A stretch of 64,000 nt of DNA from Bacteroidia bacterium (GCA_039918435.1 JBDSHN010000085.1:12666-76665); one strand, 5' to 3'; positions 2,555 through 57,126 are shown, counted from the stretch's first letter. A program made the numbers and translations. Notes: generated by a model not told the origin, from the sequence alone.

Positions 2555-3031
2555 ATGAAAAGGTATTCTTTTTTTACCCTGTTATTACTAACTATCAGTT
2601 TAACTATTAACGCCCAAAAACAAAAAGTAACCGTCGATAATGACACTATTAAAGTGGATGGTACGCCCTACGGAATCATTGAAAAAAAGAGTGCTTTGAA
2701 AAGTGACTATACGATTAAGTCGTTAGACGGTAAAGAACAAATTTTTCTTAGCGGTCAGGAATTCGACGACCCGACCAAAATCAATTCAGGTAATCCAAAG
2801 GGAACAGTAAGGTATTTTGAAGTTACTTTTTTGAATTCGGGCAGAAAGTGTGAAGTTGAAATTGCTTCAACAAAAAAAGGGGTTGCTAAAATTGTAGTAG
2901 AAAATCACCTCTTGAAAGGAAACGAGGTCGATTCGGATGCTGAAAAGAAATTTATTGTCGTCAATGGCACAAAGTTTACAGAGCGAAAAAATCAGCTTGC
3001 AGCCCCGAAGGTTATTATTATTGAAAAGTAA
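2555..3031 (+). CDS. hypothetical secreted protein
   Basis: 158-aa ORF with signal peptide MKRYSFFTLLLLTISLTINAQ. Followed by a perfect palindromic terminator. Confidence 0.5.
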   Translation: MKRYSFFTLLLLTISLTINAQKQKVTVDNDTIKVDGTPYGIIEKKSALKSDYTIKSLDGKEQIFLSGQEFDDPTKINSGNPKGTVRYFEVTFLNSGRKCEVEIASTKKGVAKIVVENHLLKGNEVDSDAEKKFIVVNGTKFTERKNQLAAPKVIIIEK

Positions 3032-3040
3032 ATTTGTTGA

Positions 3041-3076
3041 TTATTTATCCACGCAAAATTTTGCGTGGATAAATAA
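3041..3076. terminator. perfect 36-bp palindrome, probable bidirectional terminator
   Basis: TTATTTATCCACGCAAAATTTTGCGTGGATAAATAA lies immediately after the 2555..3031 CDS, and its last bases form a 3' T-run. Confidence 0.5.
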
Positions 3077-3546
3077 TTAGAGGGGAAAAATATGGTGGGT
3101 TGAAAATCTATTTTGGGATAAAAAAGAGGGCTTTATATCCCCGATTTTTAAGAAGCCCCTTTTTGCCTTTTCATAGGGGAAAAAGTCCGATTTTGGTATT
3201 CCAAAGGGATTTTGTATCTTTAATTCAGTTCTTTCAAATAATGAAGCGATTAACAGGTTTCGGAAATCATCTGAAACAATCAGATTACTATCTGCAAAAA
3301 CGCTTCTGCTTTCCTTCTACGGGTACTTGGTTCTATTTCGTTACTCCTTCCTCTTGCGTATCTTCGCAAACCTATGAACCATAGCCCTCCCACGGCTTTT
3401 AAAAATGTTTAATTATTAATCAACAGCCATTCTGTCTGTCGGCAGGATGGCTGTTTCCTGTTTATTCGTTTCTATCAATGAAAAATTAAATGCAATAGTT
3501 TGAATTACGGAATTGTGTTTAAGCACTAAAATTCCGGCGCAAACGT

Positions 3547-6474: not shown

Positions 6475-6740
6475 GACATAAATGTACCTAAGGCAGCCTG
6501 ATAGCTGAAAATTTCGAACAAAAAAAACAAGAACTTTATACTCACCCCTACCCTCCCATCAATAATCCCCAATTACCATCACTAATCACCGATTACCAAT
6601 CACTACCCACCAATCACCTCCGCCGCGGCGGACACTTATTACCTTTTTCAGCCAATCACCCCGCATAACCACCGTTCAAAAAACAATGTATGCCAATAGC
6701 CTGAGAATGTTTATTTTCGGGCTTTCTAAACCACCTATAA

Positions 6741-8789: not shown

Positions 8790-9040
8790 AAAACGAAAAT
8801 CTTAAAAGAAAGCCTGTTCTGCAAAGAGCGGGCTTTTTTTTGGAGCGAAAGGAGCAGGCAATCCACCGCGGCGGAGGAGACAGGATCCTGTATAATTGAA
8901 AGATATCAGGGGAAAAGAGAATAAGGCACAACATTATTATTCCCGTTATCTAAAATAATACAGCAATTCATACGACCTTATTATAAATGATACAGCCATT
9001 AACCTTTCCCTGCCGTCTTTCTTGCTGCCCCTCTTTTTTC

Positions 9041-9095
9041 CTCCGCCGCGGCGGATTTCCTGCCCCTCTTTTCCTGCCCTTCCGCCGCGGCGGAT
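9041..9095. repeat. two tandem copies of the dispersed intergenic element (TCCGCCGCGGCGGATTTCCTGCCCC)
   Basis: CTCCGCCGCGGCGGATTTCCTGCCCCTCTTTTCCTGCCCTTCCGCCGCGGCGGATTTCCTGCCCC lies about 80 nt upstream of yidC. Confidence 0.7.
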
Positions 9096-9137
9096 TTCCT
9101 GCCCCTTACTTTCATGCAAATTTCTCCTGTTAATAAG

Positions 9138-9171: not shown

Positions 9172-11091
9172 ATGGACAAAAAATCGATCCTTGGCTTTGT
9201 TCTCATTGCAGTAATTCTTGTGGTGTGGATGACGATCAATTCCAGCAACACGGCAAAAGATGCTGCATTAAAAAAGCGCTATGATGACTCCATTGCATTA
9301 ACAACTGCAAATCAGAAAGCGATGGCAGACGCAATGGCAAAACACAAATCTGACAGCATTGCCTTGCTTCCAAAAGATACAGCACGAATTGCAGGAGCAG
9401 ATTCTACAGCAGTTGCGCCGAAGCCAAAAGTATACAGCGTATTCAGCACTGTTTCTACCGACAATACGCCGGTAGTAATTGAAAATGAAAAAATAAAAGC
9501 AACTATTTTTCCTTTAGGCGGGCGCATTGGCCAGGTAGAGCTGAAAGGTTTGAAAACCTCTTCGGGAAAACCACTTATTCTTTTCTATCCTGATTCAACT
9601 CATTTTGGTGTTTCGTTTTTTGATAAGGATCGCAGGCGTTTAAATACAGATTCGCTTTATTTCAAAATAGAAGGGAAAGGATTTGCTGTAGGCGGAAATG
9701 ACTCGAATGCAATCAGCGTTCGTTTGTATGCAGATACAACACAGGCCAAATACATTGAATACCGCTATACGCTTCGTGGAAATTCGTATTTGCTTGGCTG
9801 CACCATTTCTTTTATAGGCCTGAATGAAGTATTTCCATCAGACCAGAGTTATGTAGATCTGAATTGGTCGATGAATGCACCATCGCAGGAAAAGAGTGTT
9901 GTAAACGAACGCGCAGTTGCATCTGTATTTTACAATTTTGTGGGTGAAGAAGGAATTGAAAATCTCTCGCACACGGAAGATGAAAAGAAAGACCTTACCG
10001 GTGAGATCAAATGGATTTCCTTTAAGCAACAATATTTTTCTTCAGTGCTTATTGCGGGAACAAAATTCAATAACGGCGTAAGTGTTGCCGTGACCAAGCC
10101 TTCTGATCCGTTTACAGTAAAAGGTATGAGCACGATTGTTCCTATTGCAATCGGAAGATCAGCGCAGGAAAGTTTCCCTATGAGTTTTTATTTCGGACCA
10201 AATAAGTTTTCAGAATTAAAAGCACAAGGCATTCACCTTGAACGTCAAATTGATTTAGGCTGGGGAATTTTCGGATGGCTGAACCGTTTTCTTTTTATTC
10301 CGTTATTCTCCTTCCTAGGAAATAATATTGTGAGCTATGGACTTGTAATCCTTTTGCTCACGATCATTGTAAAAATTATAATGTTTCCGATTGCTTATAA
10401 ATCGTTCCTTTCTTCTGCAAAAATGCGTGTGCTGAAACCGGAGATAGAAGAGATAAACGAAAAATTCGGAAAAGACGATCCGATGAAAAAGCAACAGGCT
10501 ACAATGGCACTTTACAAAAAGGCCGGTGTCAATCCTGCAGCAGGATGTATTCCTTTGCTTTTGCAAATTCCAATTCTCTTCTCGCTTATCCGCCTTTTTC
10601 CTGCTGCATTTGAATTACGACAGCAATCTTTCCTCTGGGCAACCGATCTTTCTACGTATGATTCCATTTGGGATTTCGGATTCAAAATTCCATTCTACGG
10701 CGATCACATGAGCTTGTTCGCATTGTTGATGACGGTTTCCACATTGCTGTACACGTGGATGAATCAGCAAATGTTATCACCAGGAAGCAACCAATTGCCG
10801 GGAATGAAATGGCTGATCTATTTAATGCCCGTTATGTTCCTTGGTTTCCTTAATTCTTACTCTGCCGCGCTGAGCTATTATTATTTCTTAAGCAACATCA
10901 TCAGCTTTGGCCAGATGTTTTTCATGCAGCGTTTCGTAGATCACGATGCCATCCGCGCCAAGATTGATATGAACAAGCTCAAGCCGGTGAAACAATCCGG
11001 ATTCATGCAGCGTCTCGAACAGGCACAAAAGAAACGTGTAGAGCAAATGAAACAGCAGCAGGGAACGTCCAATAAAGGGAAGAAAAAATAA
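9172..11091 (+). CDS. yidC: membrane protein insertase YidC (long Bacteroidota form)
   Basis: 639 aa with N-terminal TM, a large periplasmic domain and a C-terminal 5-TM core carrying the conserved PLLLQIPILFSLI segment. Confidence 0.85.
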   Translation: MDKKSILGFVLIAVILVVWMTINSSNTAKDAALKKRYDDSIALTTANQKAMADAMAKHKSDSIALLPKDTARIAGADSTAVAPKPKVYSVFSTVSTDNTPVVIENEKIKATIFPLGGRIGQVELKGLKTSSGKPLILFYPDSTHFGVSFFDKDRRRLNTDSLYFKIEGKGFAVGGNDSNAISVRLYADTTQAKYIEYRYTLRGNSYLLGCTISFIGLNEVFPSDQSYVDLNWSMNAPSQEKSVVNERAVASVFYNFVGEEGIENLSHTEDEKKDLTGEIKWISFKQQYFSSVLIAGTKFNNGVSVAVTKPSDPFTVKGMSTIVPIAIGRSAQESFPMSFYFGPNKFSELKAQGIHLERQIDLGWGIFGWLNRFLFIPLFSFLGNNIVSYGLVILLLTIIVKIIMFPIAYKSFLSSAKMRVLKPEIEEINEKFGKDDPMKKQQATMALYKKAGVNPAAGCIPLLLQIPILFSLIRLFPAAFELRQQSFLWATDLSTYDSIWDFGFKIPFYGDHMSLFALLMTVSTLLYTWMNQQMLSPGSNQLPGMKWLIYLMPVMFLGFLNSYSAALSYYYFLSNIISFGQMFFMQRFVDHDAIRAKIDMNKLKPVKQSGFMQRLEQAQKKRVEQMKQQQGTSNKGKKK

Positions 11092-11100
11092 AAGGGGTAC

Positions 11101-11118
11101 GTTCCGCCGCGGCGGAAC
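11101..11118. repeat. perfect 18-bp palindrome GTTCCGCCGCGGCGGAAC (left border of the low-GC islet, 10 nt after the yidC stop)
   Basis: Seen directly. The flank AAAAGGGGTACG-[palindrome]-GAATTAAAA matches, as a reverse complement, the copy at 13020-13058. Confidence 0.7.
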
Positions 11119-11140
11119 GAATTAAAACGAATTTACGAAT

Positions 11141-11193
11141 ACAAAAGTTGAAAGGGCGGCCACATAATGTGAACCGCCCTTTTCAACTTTTGT
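11141..11193 (+). terminator. hairpin with 18-bp stem (ACAAAAGTTGAAAGGGCGG / CCGCCCTTTTCAACTTTTGT)
   Basis: Inverted repeat seen directly. It lies downstream of yidC within the AT-rich islet border. Confidence 0.5.
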
Positions 11194-11499
11194 ATATTCG
11201 TTGAATTTACCCCCTAAAGTGCTGATGGCTTATAAAGTCCCCTGTTGGTAACTACCCCCGCCTAACGGTCTGCTAACGAATGGGAGCGGGTCAACTAAAC
11301 TTTTATTGCCTATGTCTGATACAAGTAAAATTTTTAATCTAGGAACGTTATTATTCCTAATATTAAAATTGAAGAAATTATAAGAGTTAAAAGGCCAACT
11401 ATTTTTATTTAATAATGTGCAGGTAATATTTCCAAATATGTAGCAAATTGAAACTATTGTAATAAAAATACCACGTCTACTCATAATTTACTTTTTTAA

Positions 11500-12630
11500 T
11501 TAAACAGCAAAGCCGCATTCCATTTGAGTTAGCTGAACATTTTTACCAGCTACTAATTCACAAGTTACTCCTTGGGCAATTGTAAGCATAGGATGCGTAT
11601 GCCCACAATCAAAATTCAAAATAATTGGGAACTTAGTTGTTGTGGGGATAATTTCAGTTATTAAGTCTTCATAACTTAAATCAGAATCACCTGAAAAATT
11701 TTCCGGCTTCGAAATTATTAACGCCTTTATTCCATCAAAAATCCCCATCTGCTTGAGTTGGGTAAGTTGTTTTTCTTCGTTTGCCATACTGGTATTCATC
11801 TGTTCTAAGCAAAGAATTGCACCATCAAGTGAGGGGAAATAAGCAGTACCAACAAGTGAAAGAAGCGCGTTCAAGTTGTAACTAAATATTTTTCCTTTTG
11901 CATTCCCTGCTCTTAAAACCTGCCATCCCTTATTCTTTTTGAAATTCCTTTTAACCGATGTCCACAATGGTTTTGTGGCATCAATAAACTGATCAGTATA
12001 TTTCTCAGGAGTTGGAAATGAATATGATTTAAATGCACCTTTAAAACCGGTTTGTATAAGGAAATTTTCAAAAGTAAATTTATCCGGACGGGGATATGTA
12101 CCAAAGGATGGAATAATCGCCGGCCCATAAAATGTACACAAACCACACTTTGTATTTAATGCTGCATGAATACTTGTAATATCACTGTAGCCGGAAATAA
12201 TTTTAGGATATTTTCGGATATAATCGTAATCAATGGATGGTAAAATGCTAGCAGAGTTTGATCCTCCTATAGAAAAAATGATTGCAGAAACTTTAGTATC
12301 CTTATAGAGATCATTAAACTCTTTTGCCCGATCCGAGATTGAGCCACTTCTATATCCTTGAGATAAAAAGGATGCAGTCAAATCACCAAGCTTAATTTTG
12401 AAACCTTGTTTTTCAAGGAAACTTATACCCTTCAAAAACTTACTTTTTAAAATAACATTACCGGGCATGCTAGGTGTCGCAATACCTATACAAGCTCCTT
12501 GTTTAAGAGAGTTTGGCTTAAGTAAATTAACTTTTCTTTTTGAAGAGAGCGACATGATATCTAAGGTGTTTTCTATTTTTGATGAATGTGGACTCATAGT
12601 AATTAAATTTTCTAAAAACAATTTCCGCAC
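11500..12630 (-). CDS. S66-family serine peptidase (LD-carboxypeptidase LdcA / microcin-C immunity MccF-like)
   Basis: CIGIATPS near the N-terminus and a GYSDITS nucleophile motif; FDCGHTHP near the C-terminus. The true start may be an internal Met (MSLSS...). Lies in a low-GC islet. Confidence 0.6.
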   Translation of the reverse strand: MRKLFLENLITMSPHSSKIENTLDIMSLSSKRKVNLLKPNSLKQGACIGIATPSMPGNVILKSKFLKGISFLEKQGFKIKLGDLTASFLSQGYRSGSISDRAKEFNDLYKDTKVSAIIFSIGGSNSASILPSIDYDYIRKYPKIISGYSDITSIHAALNTKCGLCTFYGPAIIPSFGTYPRPDKFTFENFLIQTGFKGAFKSYSFPTPEKYTDQFIDATKPLWTSVKRNFKKNKGWQVLRAGNAKGKIFSYNLNALLSLVGTAYFPSLDGAILCLEQMNTSMANEEKQLTQLKQMGIFDGIKALIISKPENFSGDSDLSYEDLITEIIPTTTKFPIILNFDCGHTHPMLTIAQGVTCELVAGKNVQLTQMECGFAV

Positions 12631-12771
12631 ATTCTTTGATCAACAGCTTATCGCTATTTTTATATCTAGCACCAAGAAAAATATCGAGCTGTACCAATGT
12701 AGGCATTTTCGCATTGTTCATTGGATAGTCATTCCAATAATGCAAATCAAAATCAAGTTCTTTATGAAGAT

Positions 12772-13008
12772 TTATCCAATCCTCTTTAAAATATGGTCTG
12801 CAATCTTTTTTAATTCCTTTCGTCTTCCTGCAATTACTACATCAAAATGCGCGTTGCCACTAAGCAACCCGTCTGAATCATTATAAATCCAAACAACAGA
12901 TTTTATTTTTACTGCTGCTTTTTGTTCTTTGAATTCTTTATAGATTCTTTTTTCAACAACCAAAGCAACTCTTTCCTTTTCACTTTCTATGATATTGATA
13001 ATATCCAA
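12772..13008 (-). CDS. hypothetical small protein (78 aa) in low-GC islet
   Basis: Intact ORF co-oriented with hldD and the S66 peptidase. No recognisable motif. Confidence 0.3.
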   Translation of the reverse strand: MDIINIIESEKERVALVVEKRIYKEFKEQKAAVKIKSVVWIYNDSDGLLSGNAHFDVVIAGRRKELKKIADHILKRIG

Positions 13009-13029
13009 ATTCGTATATTCTTTTTGATT

Positions 13030-13048
13030 CGTTCCGCCGCGGCGGATC
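13030..13048. repeat. palindrome copy CGTTCCGCCGCGGCGGATCG (right border of the low-GC islet, abutting the hldD stop)
   Basis: Reverse complement of 13017-13060 is TTAAAAGGGTACGATCCGCCGCGGCGGAACGAATCAAAAAG, about 90% identical to 11089-11128. Confidence 0.7.
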
Positions 13049-13056
13049 GTACCCTT

Positions 13057-14022
13057 TTAATAATACCTGCCATCCCGCAAATAATTCTGCACATAATCCA
13101 GAATACCGTCTTCGAGCGAATAAAATTCTTTTTCGTAACCCGCATTTTTCAGCTTCGTCATATTCGCTTCGGTGAAATACTGGTACTTGTCTCGGATATC
13201 AAGCGGCGTATCGATGAAAGAAATATTTTCCTCTTTTCCCATGGCAGCGAATGTTCCTTTTGCGAGATCAAGAAAGCTGCGCGATTTTCCGGTGCCGAGA
13301 TTGTAAATTCCGGATGCAGGATAATTTTTGAAAAGGAACACACATACTTCAATCACATCTTTCACATAAATAAAATCGCGCAATTGTTCGCCGTCTTTAT
13401 AATCGGGATTATGCGAACGGAAAAGTTTCATGGCGCCGGAAGAAGAAATCTGCCCGAACGCATGAAAAATAACGGACGCCATTCTTGATTTATGATATTC
13501 ATTGGGTCCGTACACATTGAAAAACTTCAACCCGTACCAATGTGGTGGCGCTGTTTTCTGCTGCAGCACCCATTTATCAAATTCATTCTTCGAATCGCCA
13601 TAAGGATTCAGCGGTGTTAGTTTTGAAACGAGAGAAGGATCATCATCATAACCATATTCGCCTAAACCATACGTTGCGGCAGAAGAAGCGTAGATAAGCG
13701 GAACCTGGTTTGCTGTGCAGATTTTCCAAATGTCTTTTGAATAATTGACATTGAGCCGGTCGAAAATTTCTTTGTCAAATTCTGTTGTATCTGTTCTTGC
13801 GCCGATATGGAAAACTACTTTTACTTTCTGCGCATTCGCCTCAAACCACTGCATAAATTCATCGCGATGAATGCGTTGCTTGTACCTTTTTCCTTCGAGG
13901 TTCAGATTTTTTGTATCGTCAGAAAAATCATCGACGAGAATAATATCTTCTAATCCGTCCGCATTAAGACGGCTTACGAGACATGAACCAATAAATCCAG
14001 CAGCACCAGTAACAATGATCAT
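13057..14022 (-). CDS. hldD: ADP-L-glycero-D-manno-heptose 6-epimerase
   Basis: N-terminus MIIVTGAAGFIGS...ILVDD Rossmann motif and overall SDR-extended pattern closely resemble HldD/RfaD. Confidence 0.7.
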   Translation of the reverse strand: MIIVTGAAGFIGSCLVSRLNADGLEDIILVDDFSDDTKNLNLEGKRYKQRIHRDEFMQWFEANAQKVKVVFHIGARTDTTEFDKEIFDRLNVNYSKDIWKICTANQVPLIYASSAATYGLGEYGYDDDPSLVSKLTPLNPYGDSKNEFDKWVLQQKTAPPHWYGLKFFNVYGPNEYHKSRMASVIFHAFGQISSSGAMKLFRSHNPDYKDGEQLRDFIYVKDVIEVCVFLFKNYPASGIYNLGTGKSRSFLDLAKGTFAAMGKEENISFIDTPLDIRDKYQYFTEANMTKLKNAGYEKEFYSLEDGILDYVQNYLRDGRYY

Positions 14023-16526: not shown

Positions 16527-16687
16527 GGGTGGAGAAATTTAGGTGCAAAGGTAATCTTATTCGTAATCGAGGAAGCAGGAAAAAAGGTGGCAGGTGGCAG
16601 GAAAAAAAATGGGAAATATTCCCTAAAAAGCCTGCCTCCTGCCGCCTAATTTTCCTGCCCCTTTTTTCCTTTATCTTTGTACCCATT

Positions 16688-17101
16688 ATGATACACATCA
16701 CCAGAAGGGAAAGATTTACAGCTGCTCACAGGCTTTTTAAACCGGGATTAACTGATGCGCAGAACAGTGAAATGTTCGGCGGCTGCGCAAACCCGAATTG
16801 GCACGGACACAATTACGAACTTTTTATTACCATAAAAGGAAAAGTAAATCCGGAGCTCGGTTACGTGATTAACCTGAAAGACCTCAGCGCACTTCTGAAA
16901 GTAAAAGTCATTGATAAATTAGATCACCGCAACCTGAATATGGATGTGGATTTTCTTAAAAATATTATGACTTCAACAGAAAATGTTGCGATTGCGATCT
17001 GGAAAGAAATTGAACAACCGATAAAAGAAGTGGGTGCTACTTTGCATTGCGTGAAGCTGGTGGAAACTGAAAATAATTCAGTGGAATATTTTGGAGAATA
17101 A
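16688..17101 (+). CDS. queD: 6-carboxy-5,6,7,8-tetrahydropterin synthase / 6-pyruvoyl-tetrahydropterin synthase
   Basis: FTAAHRL...CANPNWHGHNYEL motif. Start placed at the internal Met because the upstream part of the tracked ORF is repeat-rich non-coding sequence. Confidence 0.75.
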   Translation: MIHITRRERFTAAHRLFKPGLTDAQNSEMFGGCANPNWHGHNYELFITIKGKVNPELGYVINLKDLSALLKVKVIDKLDHRNLNMDVDFLKNIMTSTENVAIAIWKEIEQPIKEVGATLHCVKLVETENNSVEYFGE

Positions 17102-18590: not shown

Positions 18591-18701
18591 ATTAAACTAT
18601 GTCTTATATGTCGCCTTTTGAAAGGGAAAACGTTTTCCGGGTTTTTAAATAATACGAATTGCAGTTCGTATATTCGTAAAAATCCGTAATTCGTACTTCC
18701 T

Positions 18702-20290: not shown

Positions 20291-20393
20291 GATTTATATA
20301 ATTCTCTTTTCTGCAAACTTTTCTGTGACAGCAATTCGCGCCAGAATTTTCAATCTTGAATTTTGTCCATTGGATCCATACGGGGAATATTGA

Positions 20394-22130
20394 ATGTTGC
20401 AGCTACGGATCTTCATTTTAGCATTACTCTTCCCTGCACTTCTCTGCGGACAAAAATCTTATTCCCTTAAAATCATTGAAACAGGAAATGAGAACGCGAT
20501 AAAACACATCAGCTATAAGGAAAATTTTTCTTCCGTTCAGTCAAGAGAAAAAGAAATGCAAAGTGTGCTGAAGGTGCTTTGGAACAGCGCTTACCTTGCA
20601 GCACGTTACGACAGCATTCGCATGGATTCTCTTTCTGTGACTGCCTTCCTTAATCCCGGCTTAAAACACAAATGGGCGAAGGTGAAAAAAGGAAACGTGG
20701 ATGAAAACATTCTTGGAGAAATCGGTTTTCGCGAAAAGCATTGGAGAGACCGTCCGCTGAAATTTAATGAAGCCGGAAAACTACAGGAAGATATTCTCAA
20801 CTGGTGCGAAAACAATGGTTACCCGTTTGCTGCTGTTCGTCTTGATAGTGTTGATTTTATAAATGACCAGACGATCAGTGCGCAATTGCACCTGGATAAA
20901 AACCGTTACACGAGGATTGACAGCATTGATGTAAAAGGGAATCTTAGCCTTTCAAAACAATTTCTTTACAATTATATCGGCATTGCTCCCGGCGATGCGT
21001 ATGATGAAAGTAAATTGCAGGCCACAAGCAAACGATTGAAAGAACTTTCGTTTGCAAGAGAAACAAAATCGTACACAATCCTCTTTACAGAAAAATATAC
21101 CAAGCTTACGTTGTTCCTCGACAAAAAACGCTCCGGACAGTTTGATGGTATTCTCGGATTTTTACCGGACAGCAGGACAGGAAAAATTCTTTTCACGGGT
21201 GATGCACGGCTTCGGTTGCAAAACAGTTTTGCTCACGGAGAGATCATCGAGTTGAACTGGCGAAAATTGCAGGAACAGACGCAGGATCTCAAAGCGCATT
21301 TTAATTACCCGTATTTATTCCGCACACCGGTTGGAATTGATTACGCCATAAAATTGTATCGCCGCGATACGACTTTCCTGGATGTAAATCAGACCTTAGG
21401 ATTGCAATATTTATTTTCTGCGAATACCAGCATCAACACTTTTGTAAAACGCAGGAGCTCCAACCTGCTTTCCACGTATGGCCTGGAAAATCTGACGGTG
21501 CTTCCTGCGTATGCGGATATCAGCACAACCTCTTACGGAATTGGTTTTCATCATGAGCAGTTGGATTATCGTTTCAATCCTAGAAAAGGTTTTTCATTTA
21601 CCATCATCAATGATATCGGAAACCGGAATATCAGGAGAAATGCAAAGCTGAACCCGGTGATCTATGAAAACCTGACACTTAAGTCAACACAATACAGCGG
21701 AGAATTACTTCTCGATAAATTCTGGCCGATCGGAAAACGGAGCACAATAAAAACCGGTGTGCAGTCTGCATGGCTTTACAACAGCGCGGCTATTTTCAGG
21801 AATGAATTATTTCGAATCGGCGGATTAAAAACATTGCGGGGATTTGATGAAGAATCAATTTATGCATCAAGCTTTGCAATCGGAACAGTAGAATACCGTT
21901 ACCAGCTCGAACAGAATTCCTGGTTCTTTGTTTTTGCCGACGGATGCTGGTATGAAAATATTTCGCAGGGACATTACAATACCGATAAGCCTTTCGGATT
22001 CGGAACCGGTGTAACATTTGAAACCAAAGCCGGAATTTTTGCCATGACGTATGCCCTGGGAAGTCAGCAGGGAAATCCGATACAGTTTAAGGATGGAAAA
22101 ATACATGTAGGATTTGTGGGATTGTTTTAA
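20394..22130 (+). CDS. outer-membrane beta-barrel protein, Omp85/BamA-TamA-like (tentative)
   Basis: Signal peptide, 578 aa, C-terminal ...HVGFVGLF ending in Phe, which is the outer-membrane barrel signature. Confidence 0.35.
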   Translation: MLQLRIFILALLFPALLCGQKSYSLKIIETGNENAIKHISYKENFSSVQSREKEMQSVLKVLWNSAYLAARYDSIRMDSLSVTAFLNPGLKHKWAKVKKGNVDENILGEIGFREKHWRDRPLKFNEAGKLQEDILNWCENNGYPFAAVRLDSVDFINDQTISAQLHLDKNRYTRIDSIDVKGNLSLSKQFLYNYIGIAPGDAYDESKLQATSKRLKELSFARETKSYTILFTEKYTKLTLFLDKKRSGQFDGILGFLPDSRTGKILFTGDARLRLQNSFAHGEIIELNWRKLQEQTQDLKAHFNYPYLFRTPVGIDYAIKLYRRDTTFLDVNQTLGLQYLFSANTSINTFVKRRSSNLLSTYGLENLTVLPAYADISTTSYGIGFHHEQLDYRFNPRKGFSFTIINDIGNRNIRRNAKLNPVIYENLTLKSTQYSGELLLDKFWPIGKRSTIKTGVQSAWLYNSAAIFRNELFRIGGLKTLRGFDEESIYASSFAIGTVEYRYQLEQNSWFFVFADGCWYENISQGHYNTDKPFGFGTGVTFETKAGIFAMTYALGSQQGNPIQFKDGKIHVGFVGLF

Positions 22131-27837: not shown

Positions 27838-28091
27838 GATGTGATTGGTTAAAGGGTGAATAGTGTCCGTCGTGGCGGAGGTGATTTTGACTGGACTTCA
27901 GGCTTATTGTTAAAAAGCTTACAATTCATACATCTCATTTCGTAATTCGTACATTTTTTATTTCTTTCGTCTTAGAAAATAACGTGGCCATGGTTGCTAT
28001 TTTTCCGTTCATCTAAATTCTATAGCGTTGAAGGGTCAATACACTTACTTTCGCACCGCAATTGTGTATACGGGTGCTTAAAACACAGAAC

Positions 28092-49983: not shown

Positions 49984-50315
49984 TCACGAATGTCCTGACT
50001 TTTGATTTTATACAATTCAAAATCAATCTGTTACAAAAAATTTGTTCAAAAACGAATGTCTCGCCTATATAGGCTCTTATACTGTCCCCGGAGAATCAAA
50101 ATTACATTTGATACGTGGAAGGGGTTACGGAATTTCTTTGCAATGATAATATCTGATGCTGCACAGTTGGGTCCTGTAGCACATCATTCCGGAACTTAGG
50201 GACTATAGTCCCCTTAACACATCACCTGGTCGGGCATGGGGGAAAACTTCCCGGCCAGGTTTTTTTAAGAAATAACTTCCTGAAAAGGAAAAAACATAAA
50301 GAGGGGAAAAGAATA

Positions 50316-50667: not shown

Positions 50668-50875
50668 GTTTAATTTTTTCCTTCGCCTATTATCCTTGTC
50701 ATTTAGGAAAGCAGGCAGGCAATCCGCCGCGACGGAGGAGGCAGGAGGCAGGTTTTTAAAAAGCAGGCAGGAAAAAGGCGGGCGGCAGGTTTTTTAAAAG
50801 AGGCTGGCTGCAGAAAATAAGGATCTTTGAACTAAGCACTCCGTACTCAAAACCTAATTTTCCTATTTTGCACCC

Positions 50876-51535: not shown

Positions 51536-51600
51536 GGAAGAAGGGACGAATTTTATTTTTTGCCTGCCGCCTGCCGCTTTTTTTCCTGCTGCCTTCTCCT

Positions 51601-55448: not shown

Positions 55449-55539
55449 TACATTAAAAATACGAAAAAGGAGGCAGGAAAATCAGGAGGCAGTAGGCAGG
55501 AAAAACTATTTTCACAATCTTTTTCTCCCATCAGTATAA

Positions 55540-55575
55540 ATTGCCTGCCGTCTCCGCCGCCGCGGATTGCATGCC
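55540..55575. repeat. dispersed element copy TTGCCTGCCGTCTCCGCCGCCGCGGATTGCATGCCCC upstream of arfB
   Basis: Variant palindrome CCGCCGCCGCGG with CCTGCC-type flanks. Confidence 0.6.
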
Positions 55576-56021: not shown

Positions 56022-56029
56022 ACAATGTG

Positions 56030-56165
56030 CAAATTTCAAATTTGTAAATTTCAAATTATAAAGCTTCCAATAAACATTTTCGCCATTTGAACATTTGCAC
56101 ATTGCACATTTAAAATTTACACATTTGAAATTTGAACATTTAAAATTTGAACATTTGAAATTTAC
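56030..56165. repeat. inverted arrays of degenerate AAATTT(C/G)AA(A/C)ATTT tandem repeats
   Basis: The left arm GTGCAAATTTCAAATTTGTAAATTTCAAATT faces a right arm ...CACATTTGAAATTTGAACATTTAAAATTTGAACATTTGAAATTT, between convergent arfB and miaA. Confidence 0.55.
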
Positions 56166-57064: not shown

Positions 57065-57126
57065 AGTAACTATTCAAAGATTCAATACCCAAAACATTGA
57101 ACCCGGAACCCCGAACTCAGAACTTT

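What the first reader, a model, noticed from the sequence alone, without database searches (positions are those of the whole stretch)
8861..9100. Dispersed intergenic repeat family built around the palindrome CCGCCGCGGCGG with (A)TTTCCTGCCCC flanks
I found at least 12 copies in 64 kb, all intergenic. The start coordinates, with forms in parentheses, are: 6618 (CTCCGCCGCGGCGGAC), 8861 (variant CCACCGCGGCGG), 9041 and 9081 (tandem, identical TCCGCCGCGGCGGATTTCCTGCCCC), 11101, 13030, 27865 (degenerate GTCCGTCGTGGCGGAGG), 43003, 50722 (CCGCCGCGACGGAGG followed by a GCAGGAGGCAGG array), 55551 (CCGCCGCCGCGG), 58007 (CCGCCGCGACGG) and 61148 (TTCGCCGCGGCGGATAA). CCTGCC/GGCAGG-rich stretches without the palindrome occur at 16590-16680, 42690-42780 and 51550-51600. 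Copies sit both 5' of genes (yidC, M13 peptidase, ECF sigma, arfB, HAD) and directly 3' of stops (yidC, hldD, M13 peptidase). That distribution is typical of REP/BIME-like or MITE-like elements, possibly acting as attenuators, RNA-stability determinants or binding sites. I do not recognise this consensus from described Bacteroidota repeat families.
Basis: seen in the sequence. Interest (0 to 1): 0.5.

Follow-up and report, generated by a model that had tools for sequence, protein, structure and literature searches.

The report
Lineage-specific short palindromic intergenic repeat
An uncultured soil Bacteroidota genome carries a young family of a 14-base perfect palindrome (TCCGCCGCGGCGGA), found only between genes, inside older 7-base-periodic tracts, and absent from the same spacers in its closest relatives; it behaves like REP-type selfish DNA but lacks the REP hallmarks.

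Summary
The real core is the 14-bp perfect palindrome TCCGCCGCGGCGGA. There are 6 perfect copies, 12 with at most 1 mismatch and 14 with at most 2. For the 12-mer, 0.02 matches are expected by chance. Every copy lies in the about 10% of the window that is non-coding.

The CCTGCC flanks are not part of the repeat. They belong to one of at least four kinds of 7-nt-periodic tract (CCTGCC, AATCACC, ACGAAT, ACATTGA). These tracts fill the spacers here and in related genomes. Six copies sit in CCTGCC tracts and the others in the other tract types.

About 100 kb of syntenic DNA from five relatives (77-90% protein identity) has no intergenic copy. The same spacers there carry tracts without the palindrome, and alignments show clean 12-22 nt indels. 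No Bacteroidota-like context turned up in 185,579 species genomes, JGI metagenomes or IMG/VR.

Copies occur singly, once in tandem and three times as inverted doublets that fold into long hairpins. The lone hairpin is weak (about -8 kcal/mol, no U tract). Positions relative to promoters vary and the neighbouring genes are unrelated in function.

Best reading: a recently amplified, REP/REPIN-like selfish palindrome. REP tags and length are not met, and no RAYT could be searched for genome-wide. How it is copied is unknown.

The parts
6619..6632 (+). Perfect 14-mer TCCGCCGCGGCGGA inside an AATCACC-type tract (6556-6660), upstream of the M13 peptidase gene. Subfamily ii, with the tail ACAC.
8862..8875 (-). 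Variant TCCACCGCGGCGGA in the GGCAGG arm, downstream of the M13 peptidase terminator. Subfamily i. Left member of an inverted doublet with 9042.
   Evidence: (I8)
9042..9055 (+). Perfect copy in the CCTGCC arm upstream of the yidC promoter. Subfamily i. Distal unit of the 39-nt tandem duplication at 9025-9106.
9081..9094 (+). Perfect copy, the proximal unit of the tandem pair. The TAtcTTTG -7 box lies about 45 nt downstream.
11103..11116 (+). Perfect copy, extended to the 20-bp palindrome at 11100-11119. It lies 12 nt after the yidC stop codon, at the outer end of the ACGAAT arm. Subfamily iii.
   Evidence: (I1)
13033..13046 (-). Perfect copy 11 nt after the hldD stop codon. It is the inverted partner of 11103 (53-nt arms, 89% complementary).
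   Evidence: (I1)
27866..27879 (-). Degenerate copy TCCGTCGTGGCGGA in a GGTGATT (reverse complement of AATCACC) tract. Subfamily ii.
   Evidence: (I7)
43006..43019 (+). Perfect copy in the CCTGCC tract upstream of the ECF sigma factor gene. It follows a 63-nt tandem repeat at 42887-43006.
   Evidence: (gene)
50723..50736 (-). Variant TCCGCCGCGACGGA in a GGCAGG tract between a terminator and the promoter of the HAD hydrolase gene.
55553..55566 (+). Variant TCCGCCGCCGCGGA in the CCTGCC arm upstream of arfB. The opposite GGCAGG arm (55463-55505) has no copy.
58008..58021 (.). Variant TCCGCCGCGACGGA in the divergent spacer upstream of ribD, with an ACATTGAAC-type flank.
59531..59544 (.). Two-mismatch copy TCCGCCCCAGCGGA, 15 nt upstream of the EamA gene start. 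The stem is kept and the loop has changed.
61148..61160 (-). Copy lacking one C (TCGCCGCGGCGGA), 13 nt after the stop codon of the UPF0029 gene. Left member of an inverted doublet.
61255..61268 (+). Variant TCCGCAGCGGCGGA, 20 nt after the stop codon of the thioesterase gene (minus strand). Right member of the doublet.
16570..16670 (.). Context, not a member of the family: a GGCAGG arm and a CCTGCC arm of a divergent promoter spacer, without the palindrome. The same architecture is present in relative L016 at 16741-16890.
11192..11215 (.). Context: an ACGAAT-type arm without the palindrome. It serves as the 'empty' counterpart of the arms at 11088-11140 and 13009-13061.

Best explanation
This is a young family of very short palindromic extragenic repeats, restricted to one lineage. 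The core is TCCGCCGCGGCGGA, and about 12-22 nt are gained per site. The repeats were inserted into pre-existing heptamer-periodic tracts in non-coding spacers.

The family behaves like REP/REPIN-type selfish DNA. It multiplies as DNA and persists only where insertions are tolerated. Where a spacer already had inverted arms, the repeat is now present in both arms, so the two copies pair and clamp the spacer into a long hairpin.

Shown here:
- over-representation of the palindrome;
- strictly extragenic location;
- absence from orthologous spacers of relatives, with clean indels;
- subfamilies that differ in their flanks;
- tandem and inverted doublets.

Inferred, not shown:
- copying is done in trans, by an enzyme that recognises the small GC hairpin in single-stranded DNA (RAYT-like or other);
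- copying from one arm of a spacer to the other occurs by template switching, that is, quasi-palindrome correction;
- the element has no dedicated regulatory role.
For: The 12-mer gives 12 hits against 0.02 expected. All 14 copies lie in the 10% of the window that is non-coding.

There is no intergenic copy in about 100 kb of syntenic DNA from five relatives: L016 at 90% YidC identity, L022 at 87% RluD identity, and L018, L023 and L020 at 77-80%. Alignments of orthologous spacers show that the tract is present in the relatives and that the palindrome is a 12-22 nt gain in the window. An 'empty' arm also exists in the same genome (11192-11215).

The pattern with the CCTGCC flank was not found in any Bacteroidota-like context in 185,579 species genomes, in JGI metagenomes or in IMG/VR.

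At least four flank subfamilies each have two or more members. There is one tandem pair. There are three inverted doublets (I1 and I8). Two of the doublets were folded and form long closing stems, with z-scores of -5.0 and -5.5.

The closest relative, L016, carries a different repeated perfect palindrome, TCCCGATAGCTATCGGGA. One copy lies in the same AATCA-type tract upstream of the M13 peptidase gene. This is the pattern expected of species-specific repeat families.

An independent Logan contig ends 5 nt after copy 13033, as happens at repeats.
Against: No transposase, RAYT or integrase is encoded in the 64 kb window among the ORFs scanned against Pfam, or in the further 7 kb of the same genome beyond dnaA as annotated with the retrieved contig.

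The genome-wide copy number is unknown, and the 7 kb beyond dnaA has no copies.

The defining REP features are missing: there is no GTAG/CGTC tag, and the stem is only 5 bp. No mechanism is known that moves a 14-nt unit.

All copies sit in repetitive tracts, so target-site duplications cannot be read, and gene conversion between similar tracts could mimic transposition.

The core diverges less from its consensus (about 4-5%) than the flanks do (8-20%). That is also what selection on a binding site would give.
Confidence: 0.55

Rival explanations
1. No dedicated mobility enzyme is involved. The palindrome arose once by a fold-back (template-switch) event inside a CCTGCC(G) tract. It then spread and was homogenised only by short-patch gene conversion between similar tracts and between the arms of a spacer.
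For: The left half, TCCGCCG, is ordinary tract sequence. L016 has CCTGCCGCCTCC at the orthologous site upstream of yidC, and there the window's proximal copy aligns with almost no change in length. The right half, GGCGG, pairs with the tract sequence CTGCC. All 14 copies lie in tracts. The palindrome is gained symmetrically in both arms of three spacers.
Against: The same 14-mer also lies in AATCACC, ACGAAT and ACATTGA tracts, which share no homology with CCTGCC tracts. At least three transfers between tract types must therefore have happened without flanking homology. In the ACGAAT arms it is a clean 12-22 nt insertion.
Confidence: 0.2
2. The 14-bp dyad is the binding site of a lineage-specific dimeric DNA-binding protein, such as a nucleoid-associated or ParB/Noc-like chromosome organiser, or a global regulator. 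The sites are kept by selection.
For: The 14-bp symmetry is perfect, and the core is more conserved than its flanks. The window lies next to dnaA and to the GC-skew minimum. Half of the 10 variant positions fall in the central 4 nt. Relative L016 has a different palindrome at one corresponding site, which co-evolution of a site and its protein could produce.
Against: The sites are absent from the orthologous spacers of five relatives. The distance to the TAnnTTTG -7 box varies from about 35 to about 180 nt, and some sites lie 3' of stop codons. The flanking genes have no common function. The tandem and inverted doublets sit at irregular spacing. Nothing in the window matches the canonical parS site. 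The 7 kb on the other side of dnaA has no copies.
Confidence: 0.15
3. The palindrome acts in RNA, as a small hairpin that attenuates or terminates transcription or stabilises transcript 3' ends.
For: Four copies lie 11-20 nt after stop codons (yidC, hldD, UPF0029 gene, thioesterase gene). Some variants keep the stem through G-U pairs or change only the loop.
Against: The hairpin has a 5-bp stem and a 4-nt loop, folds at about -8 kcal/mol, has z-scores between -0.1 and -2, and is not followed by a U tract. Separate canonical terminators are present next to the copies. Eight or more copies lie between a terminator and the next promoter, or in divergent promoter spacers, where little transcription is expected. 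No Rfam family matches.
Confidence: 0.08

Closest known systems
REP / REPIN / BIME elements of Proteobacteria (mobilised by RAYT, also called TnpA-REP)
   Same: Short GC-rich palindrome. Strictly extragenic and strongly over-represented. Occurs as singletons, tandem pairs and inverted dimers, and the doublets fold into long hairpins. The sequence is species-specific and a close relative has a different palindrome. Some REP groups also have perfect palindromes (PMC8266576).
   Different: Only 14 nt (5-bp stem), against 20-40 nt with 6-9 bp stems. There is no GTAG or CGTC tag (PMC3733652). No RAYT was found in the DNA available. Every copy is embedded in a heptamer-periodic tract. The host is an uncultured soil Bacteroidota, whereas RAYT groups 2 and 3, the only groups clearly linked to REPINs, are illustrated there with Escherichia and Pseudomonas (PMC5581495).
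HIP1, the highly iterated palindrome of cyanobacteria (GCGATCGC)
   Same: A very short, perfect, GC-rich palindrome amplified in particular lineages by an unknown mechanism. It occurs in genomes that also carry heptamer tandem repeats (STRR). This comparison rests on my own knowledge.
   Different: HIP1 is an 8-mer that is abundant inside genes as well. Here 0 of 14 copies are in coding DNA.
Heptanucleotide tandem repeats (LSSR, STRR, TAACTGA repeats). This comparison concerns the flanks only.
   Same: Period-7 direct repeats in intergenic DNA, often just upstream of start codons or downstream of stop codons. They have been reported in Beggiatoaceae, cyanobacteria and a few Bacteroidetes (PMC4679880). 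The window shows intergenic autocorrelation peaks at lags 7, 14 and 21, and so do relatives L016, L022 and L023.
   Different: Here many different heptamers occur in one genome. They are arranged as inverted arms around spacers, and orthologous spacers in relatives carry different heptamers.
MITEs and Correia-type elements
   Same: Intergenic position, arms made of inverted repeats, and potential to form long hairpins.
   Different: No unit longer than about 40 nt recurs. The central regions of the doublets are unique. No target-site duplication can be read.

Membership tests
REP/REPIN (RAYT-associated) | Short palindrome that is strongly over-represented and extragenic | tested here: met
   12 hits against 0.02 expected. 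All 14 copies are non-coding.
REP/REPIN (RAYT-associated) | Palindrome of 20-40 nt, with stems mostly 6-9 bp | tested here: not met
   14-nt core with a 5-bp stem and a 4-nt loop. Only copy 11100-11119 reaches 20 nt. The criterion comes from PMC3733652.
REP/REPIN (RAYT-associated) | Conserved GTAG or CGTC tag at one end | tested here: not met
   The flanks of all 14 copies share no such tetranucleotide.
REP/REPIN (RAYT-associated) | Occurs as head-to-head, tail-to-tail or head-to-tail dimers, and the doublets fold into hairpins | tested here: met
   Inverted doublets at 8850-8885/9032-9067, 11088-11140/13009-13061 and 61138-61166/61249-61277. Tandem pair with a 39-nt period. The first and third doublets were folded as single-stranded DNA and gave z-scores of -5.0 and -5.5.
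REP/REPIN (RAYT-associated) | Cognate single-copy RAYT gene flanked by the repeat | not testable with these tools
   The whole genome is not available. No transposase-like ORF is present among the ORFs scanned in the 64 kb window or annotated in the 7 kb extension.
REP/REPIN (RAYT-associated) | Tens to hundreds of copies genome-wide | not testable with these tools
   Only about 71 kb of this genome could be read. The density is 14 copies per 64 kb, then 0 in the next 7 kb.
MITE | A recurring unit of 50-500 bp with terminal inverted repeats and target-site duplications | tested here: not met
   Similarity between copies ends 10-20 nt from the core. The central regions of the doublets are unique.
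Intrinsic terminator | Stable GC-rich hairpin followed by a U tract at the 3' end of a gene | tested here: not met
   About -8 kcal/mol and no T run. Separate canonical terminators lie nearby. Many copies are upstream of genes.
parS / ParB-type centromere site | Match to the TGTTNCACGTGAAACA consensus, conserved across relatives near the replication origin | tested here: not met
   The sequence is unrelated. The only parS-like hit has 3 mismatches, which is chance level. Syntenic relatives lack the palindrome.
Transcription-factor operator (regulon) | Fixed position relative to the promoter, conserved at orthologous promoters, and functionally related target genes | tested here: not met
   The distance to the -7 box varies from about 35 to about 180 nt, and some sites are 3' of genes. 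Orthologous spacers lack the site. The adjacent genes are unrelated in function.
Heptamer tandem-repeat tracts (LSSR/STRR-like), flanks only | Period-7 direct repeats concentrated in intergenic DNA | tested here: met
   TRF finds period-7 and period-14 arrays. Intergenic match fractions at lags 7, 14 and 21 are 0.314, 0.305 and 0.295, against about 0.27 at other lags, and there is no such peak in coding DNA. Relatives show the same signal.
DNA uptake sequences (DUS/USS) | Non-palindromic 9-12-mer that is frequent inside genes as well | tested here: not met
   The sequence is a perfect palindrome, and no copy is in coding DNA.

The most novel reading that the evidence does not exclude
The 14-16 nt palindrome is a new kind of ultra-short mobile DNA. 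It is inserted specifically into heptamer-repeat tracts by an enzyme that is not a RAYT. It occurs in a clade of soil Bacteroidota whose intergenic spacers are built from fast-evolving inverted heptamer arms. Each lineage carries its own palindrome 'dialect': TCCGCCGCGGCGGA here and TCCCGATAGCTATCGGGA in L016.
Probability: 0.15. Interest if true: 0.7.

Novelty: new variant of a known kind. Interest (0 to 1): 0.4.

Why it matters
If it is mobile, this would be among the shortest amplified palindromes known, and an example from Bacteroidota, where REP-like families are hardly described. Because it is absent from congeneric genomes, it can serve as a marker of recent genome dynamics and as a strain marker. 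It also explains contig breaks in metagenome assemblies of this organism. The wider context may matter more: spacers built of inverted, heptamer-periodic arms whose sequence differs between orthologous spacers of related species. This points to an unexplained and active process that shapes non-coding DNA in this clade. With a complete genome, both questions become directly testable.

Tried and rejected
1. A scan of 185,579 species genomes for CCGCCGCGGCGGATTNCCTGCC gave 14 hits, all in high-GC non-Bacteroidota genomes.
2. The same pattern in JGI metagenomes gave 17 hits, all in coding or unrelated contexts.
3. Three IMG/VR scans, one per flank subfamily, gave 0, 3 and 0 hits. The 3 hits are one homologous gene in high-GC phages.
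4. Rfam found nothing relevant, at gathering thresholds or at E<0.5.
5. Two exact-protein look-ups were tried to extend the genome. They added 7 kb beyond dnaA, with no copies, and 2 kb of coding DNA upstream. The look-up of the ECF sigma factor with the ATG at 43136 as start failed.
6. No closer relative than 90% protein identity was found, so no strain-level presence/absence test was possible.
7. I tested whether CCGCGG is avoided outside the family, as a hint of a SacII-like restriction-modification system. There are 2 sites outside the family against about 4-5 expected, which is inconclusive. Three of the variant copies carry the same change (C4 to T, or its equivalent G9 to A on the other strand), at the outer C of CCGCGG. 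I note this but do not interpret it.
8. I tried to read target-site duplications. This fails because the flanks are themselves repeats.
9. Covariation of the stem cannot be assessed: there are too few variant copies, and 5 of 10 changes fall in the loop, which is not significant.
10. A full-text literature search for the 12-mer found only PCR primers.
11. Rejected explanations: assembly or adapter artefact (there are degenerate copies and subfamilies, all intergenic, and an independent Logan contig is identical), MITE, parS, operator, DNA uptake sequence and intrinsic terminator.

Full report
**Observation.** CCGCCGCGGCGG with at most one mismatch occurs 12 times in 64 kb, against 0.02 expected from dinucleotide-preserving shuffles.

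The conserved unit is the 14-bp perfect palindrome TCCGCCGCGGCGGA:
- six perfect copies, at 6619, 9042, 9081, 11103, 13033 and 43006;
- twelve copies with at most one mismatch;
- fourteen copies with at most two mismatches.

All copies lie in the 10.1% of the window that I scored as non-coding. If placement were random, the probability is about 1e-13. It is the only repeated GC-rich palindrome in the window.

**Source organism.** The neighbouring genes are ordinary housekeeping genes: M15, M13, S66 and C1 peptidases, yidC, hldD, an ECF sigma factor, a HAD hydrolase, arfB, ribD and others. The best matches are uncultured soil 'Bacteroidota/Bacteroidia bacterium' MAGs. The nearest YidC is 90% identical. 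dnaA begins at about 63770 and the cumulative GC skew turns at 61-62 kb, so the window lies next to the replication origin.

**The flanks are not part of the repeat.** Only six copies have CCTGCC flanks. Four sit in AATCACC-type sequence and share the tail ACAC (6619, 27866, 61148, 61255). Two sit in ACGAAT-type arms (11103, 13033). One has an ACATTGA-type flank (58008), and 59531 has yet another.

These flanks are examples of a general feature. Intergenic DNA in this genome is periodic with period 7. TRF finds many period-7 and period-14 arrays. The intergenic match fraction peaks at lags 7, 14 and 21 (0.314, 0.305, 0.295, against about 0.27 at other lags), and there is no such peak in coding DNA. 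Heptamer tandem repeats near gene ends are known from Beggiatoaceae, cyanobacteria and a few Bacteroidetes (PMC4679880).

**Comparison with relatives.** I fetched syntenic loci from five relatives:
- L016: 90% YidC identity;
- L018: 79% YidC identity;
- L020: 77% YidC identity;
- L022: 87% RluD identity;
- L023: 80% RluD identity.

Together they cover about 100 kb and the orthologues of most palindrome-bearing spacers. None has an intergenic copy of the 14-mer at two mismatches or fewer. The single hit lies at position 20645 of the 55%-GC locus L023, inside an annotated gene.

The tracts, however, are there. The spacer between the M13 peptidase gene and yidC in L016 and L018 has the same layout as in the window: terminator, GGCAGG-type arm, unique centre, CCTGCC-type arm, then the TAtcTTTG promoter. 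The yidC-hldD spacer in L016 and L018 has ACGAAT arms around a terminator hairpin.

Alignments show the palindrome as a clean gain of 12-22 nt inside these arms. At the proximal site upstream of yidC, the gain looks like a nearly length-neutral replacement of the tract sequence CCTGCCGCCTCC. The arm at 11192-11215 is an 'empty' version within the same genome. The tracts are therefore older, and the palindrome is a recent addition specific to this lineage.

The tracts themselves turn over. The spacer upstream of arfB has GGCAGG/CCTGCC arms in the window, GGGATTA/TAATCCC arms in L023, and is only about 35 nt long in L022.

**Distribution elsewhere.** The subfamily-i pattern CCGCCGCGGCGGATTNCCTGCC was absent from all Bacteroidota among 185,579 species genomes. 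It was also absent from related contexts in JGI metagenomes. It and the subfamily-ii pattern gave no IMG/VR hits, and the three hits to the subfamily-iii pattern lie in one coding gene of high-GC phages. Rfam has nothing relevant, and the literature search for the 12-mer found only primers.

The closest relative, L016, has two intergenic copies of a different perfect palindrome, TCCCGATAGCTATCGGGA. One lies in the same AATCA-type tract upstream of the M13 peptidase gene where the window has copy 6619.

**Arrangement of the copies.** Copies occur as singletons. One tandem pair comes from a 39-nt duplication at 9025-9106. There are three inverted doublets:
- 8850-8885 with 9032-9067;
- 11088-11140 with 13009-13061 (53 nt, 89% complementary);
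- 61138-61166 with 61249-61277.

Folded as single-stranded DNA, the first and third doublets pair with each other and close the whole spacer into a long hairpin, with z-scores of -5.0 and -5.5. The 11103/13033 pair now flanks a 1.9-kb low-GC segment. That segment carries an S66 LD-carboxypeptidase gene and small ORFs, and it is missing from all three relatives.

**Tests of function.** On its own, the palindrome gives only a 5-bp stem with a 4-nt loop. It folds at about -8 kcal/mol, with z-scores between -0.1 and -2, and has no U tract. Canonical terminators lie beside several copies. The distance to the Bacteroidetes-type -7 box (TAnnTTTG) ranges from about 35 to about 180 nt. Other copies are 11-20 nt after stop codons. 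The adjacent genes have nothing in common. There is no parS-like site. These results argue against a terminator, an operator or a centromere role.

**Interpretation.** The evidence fits a recently amplified, selfish, REP/REPIN-like palindromic repeat that has colonised heptamer tracts. The pieces of evidence are its strictly extragenic location, restriction to one lineage, clean indels, subfamilies, dimers that form hairpins, and a different palindrome in the sister lineage.

It is not a canonical REP. It is too short, it lacks the GTAG/CGTC tag (PMC3733652), and no RAYT could be looked for outside the 71 kb available. None is encoded in the ORFs examined there.

How a 14-nt unit is copied remains inference. 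One possibility is an enzyme that acts on the single-stranded hairpin. Another is an origin by fold-back within a CCTGCC(G) tract, whose sequence already contains TCCGCCG, followed by gene conversion. The presence of the same core in three tract types with no shared homology speaks against conversion alone.

The symmetric gain in both arms of pre-existing inverted repeats is what template-switch 'quasi-palindrome correction' would produce. That mechanism is established knowledge but was not tested here.

A binding-site role cannot be excluded. The core is better conserved than its flanks, and the window is close to the replication origin.

**Verdict.** This is a real and statistically solid feature. 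I class it as a new variant of a known kind of element. Interest is moderate. The decisive data are a complete genome and a comparison between strains.

Noticed in passing
window intergenic spacers generally (for example 6556-6618, 16570-16670, 18650-18701, 56024-56165, 57087-57126, 58149-58202, 59432-59464, 60452-60473); also L016, L022 and L023: Most spacers contain degenerate period-7 tracts of many different sequences (GGCAGGN, AATCACC, ACGAATT, GAACCCG, ACATTTG, GTTATCA, CTACTGA). They are often arranged as inverted arms, with the pyrimidine-rich version on the sense strand just upstream of the TAnnTTTG -7 box. Orthologous spacers in relatives carry different heptamers: L023 has TAATCCC repeats, six or more consecutive TCAAGTC units and five consecutive AGGTATT units.
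   Followed up: partly
L016:7378-7395 and L016:20575-20592: The closest relative has its own repeated 18-bp perfect palindrome, TCCCGATAGCTATCGGGA, in two spacers. One copy is in the same tract upstream of the M13 peptidase gene where the window has its palindrome. At the other site, the window's orthologous spacer has an imperfect ATTGGATCCAT palindrome (about 20365-20380).
   Followed up: partly
window 11216-13008: A 1.9-kb low-GC (37-38%) segment lies between yidC and hldD and is absent from L016, L018 and L020. It carries an S66 LD-carboxypeptidase gene and three small ORFs with no recognisable function. It is bounded by direct copies of the ACGAAT-type arm, one with the palindrome and one without.
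   Followed up: partly
window 50154-50266: An intergenic stretch of about 115 nt is conserved downstream of the CofH/MqnC-like radical SAM gene in the window, L022 and L023. The alignment fold predicts three hairpins, including a terminator. Four base pairs show compensatory changes. There is no Rfam match. It is a candidate small RNA or leader.
   Followed up: partly
window 32170-40093: The window encodes a 2015-aa SpvB/TcdB/FG-GAP/RHS protein with a C-terminal GH-E HNH nuclease domain (a polymorphic toxin). It is preceded by four ORFs of 144-154 aa with no Pfam match.
   Followed up: no
window 63770-64000 and L042: dnaA starts at about 63770 and the cumulative GC skew reaches its minimum at 61-62 kb, so the replication origin is at or near the right end of the window. 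The 7 kb beyond dnaA has heptamer tracts but no palindrome copies.
   Followed up: partly
window 3032-3080: A 40-nt hairpin follows the gene at 2555-3031. Its arms contain TTATCCACG / CGTGGATAA, which resembles a DnaA box. Two Logan contigs (L043 and L001) break and overlap exactly here.
   Followed up: no
variant copies at window 27866, 50723 and 58008: Three of the variant copies carry the same change: C to T at the outer C of the central CCGCGG, or the equivalent G to A on the other strand. This could be a hotspot for deamination of methylated cytosine. Only 2 CCGCGG sites exist outside the family.
   Followed up: partly
L028 and L037 (JGI metagenome contigs): Two unrelated metagenome contigs share a different repeat-like sequence around GGCAGTCCGCCGCGGCGGATTTCCTGCCGGAAATT. 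It has no connection to the window's organism.
   Followed up: no
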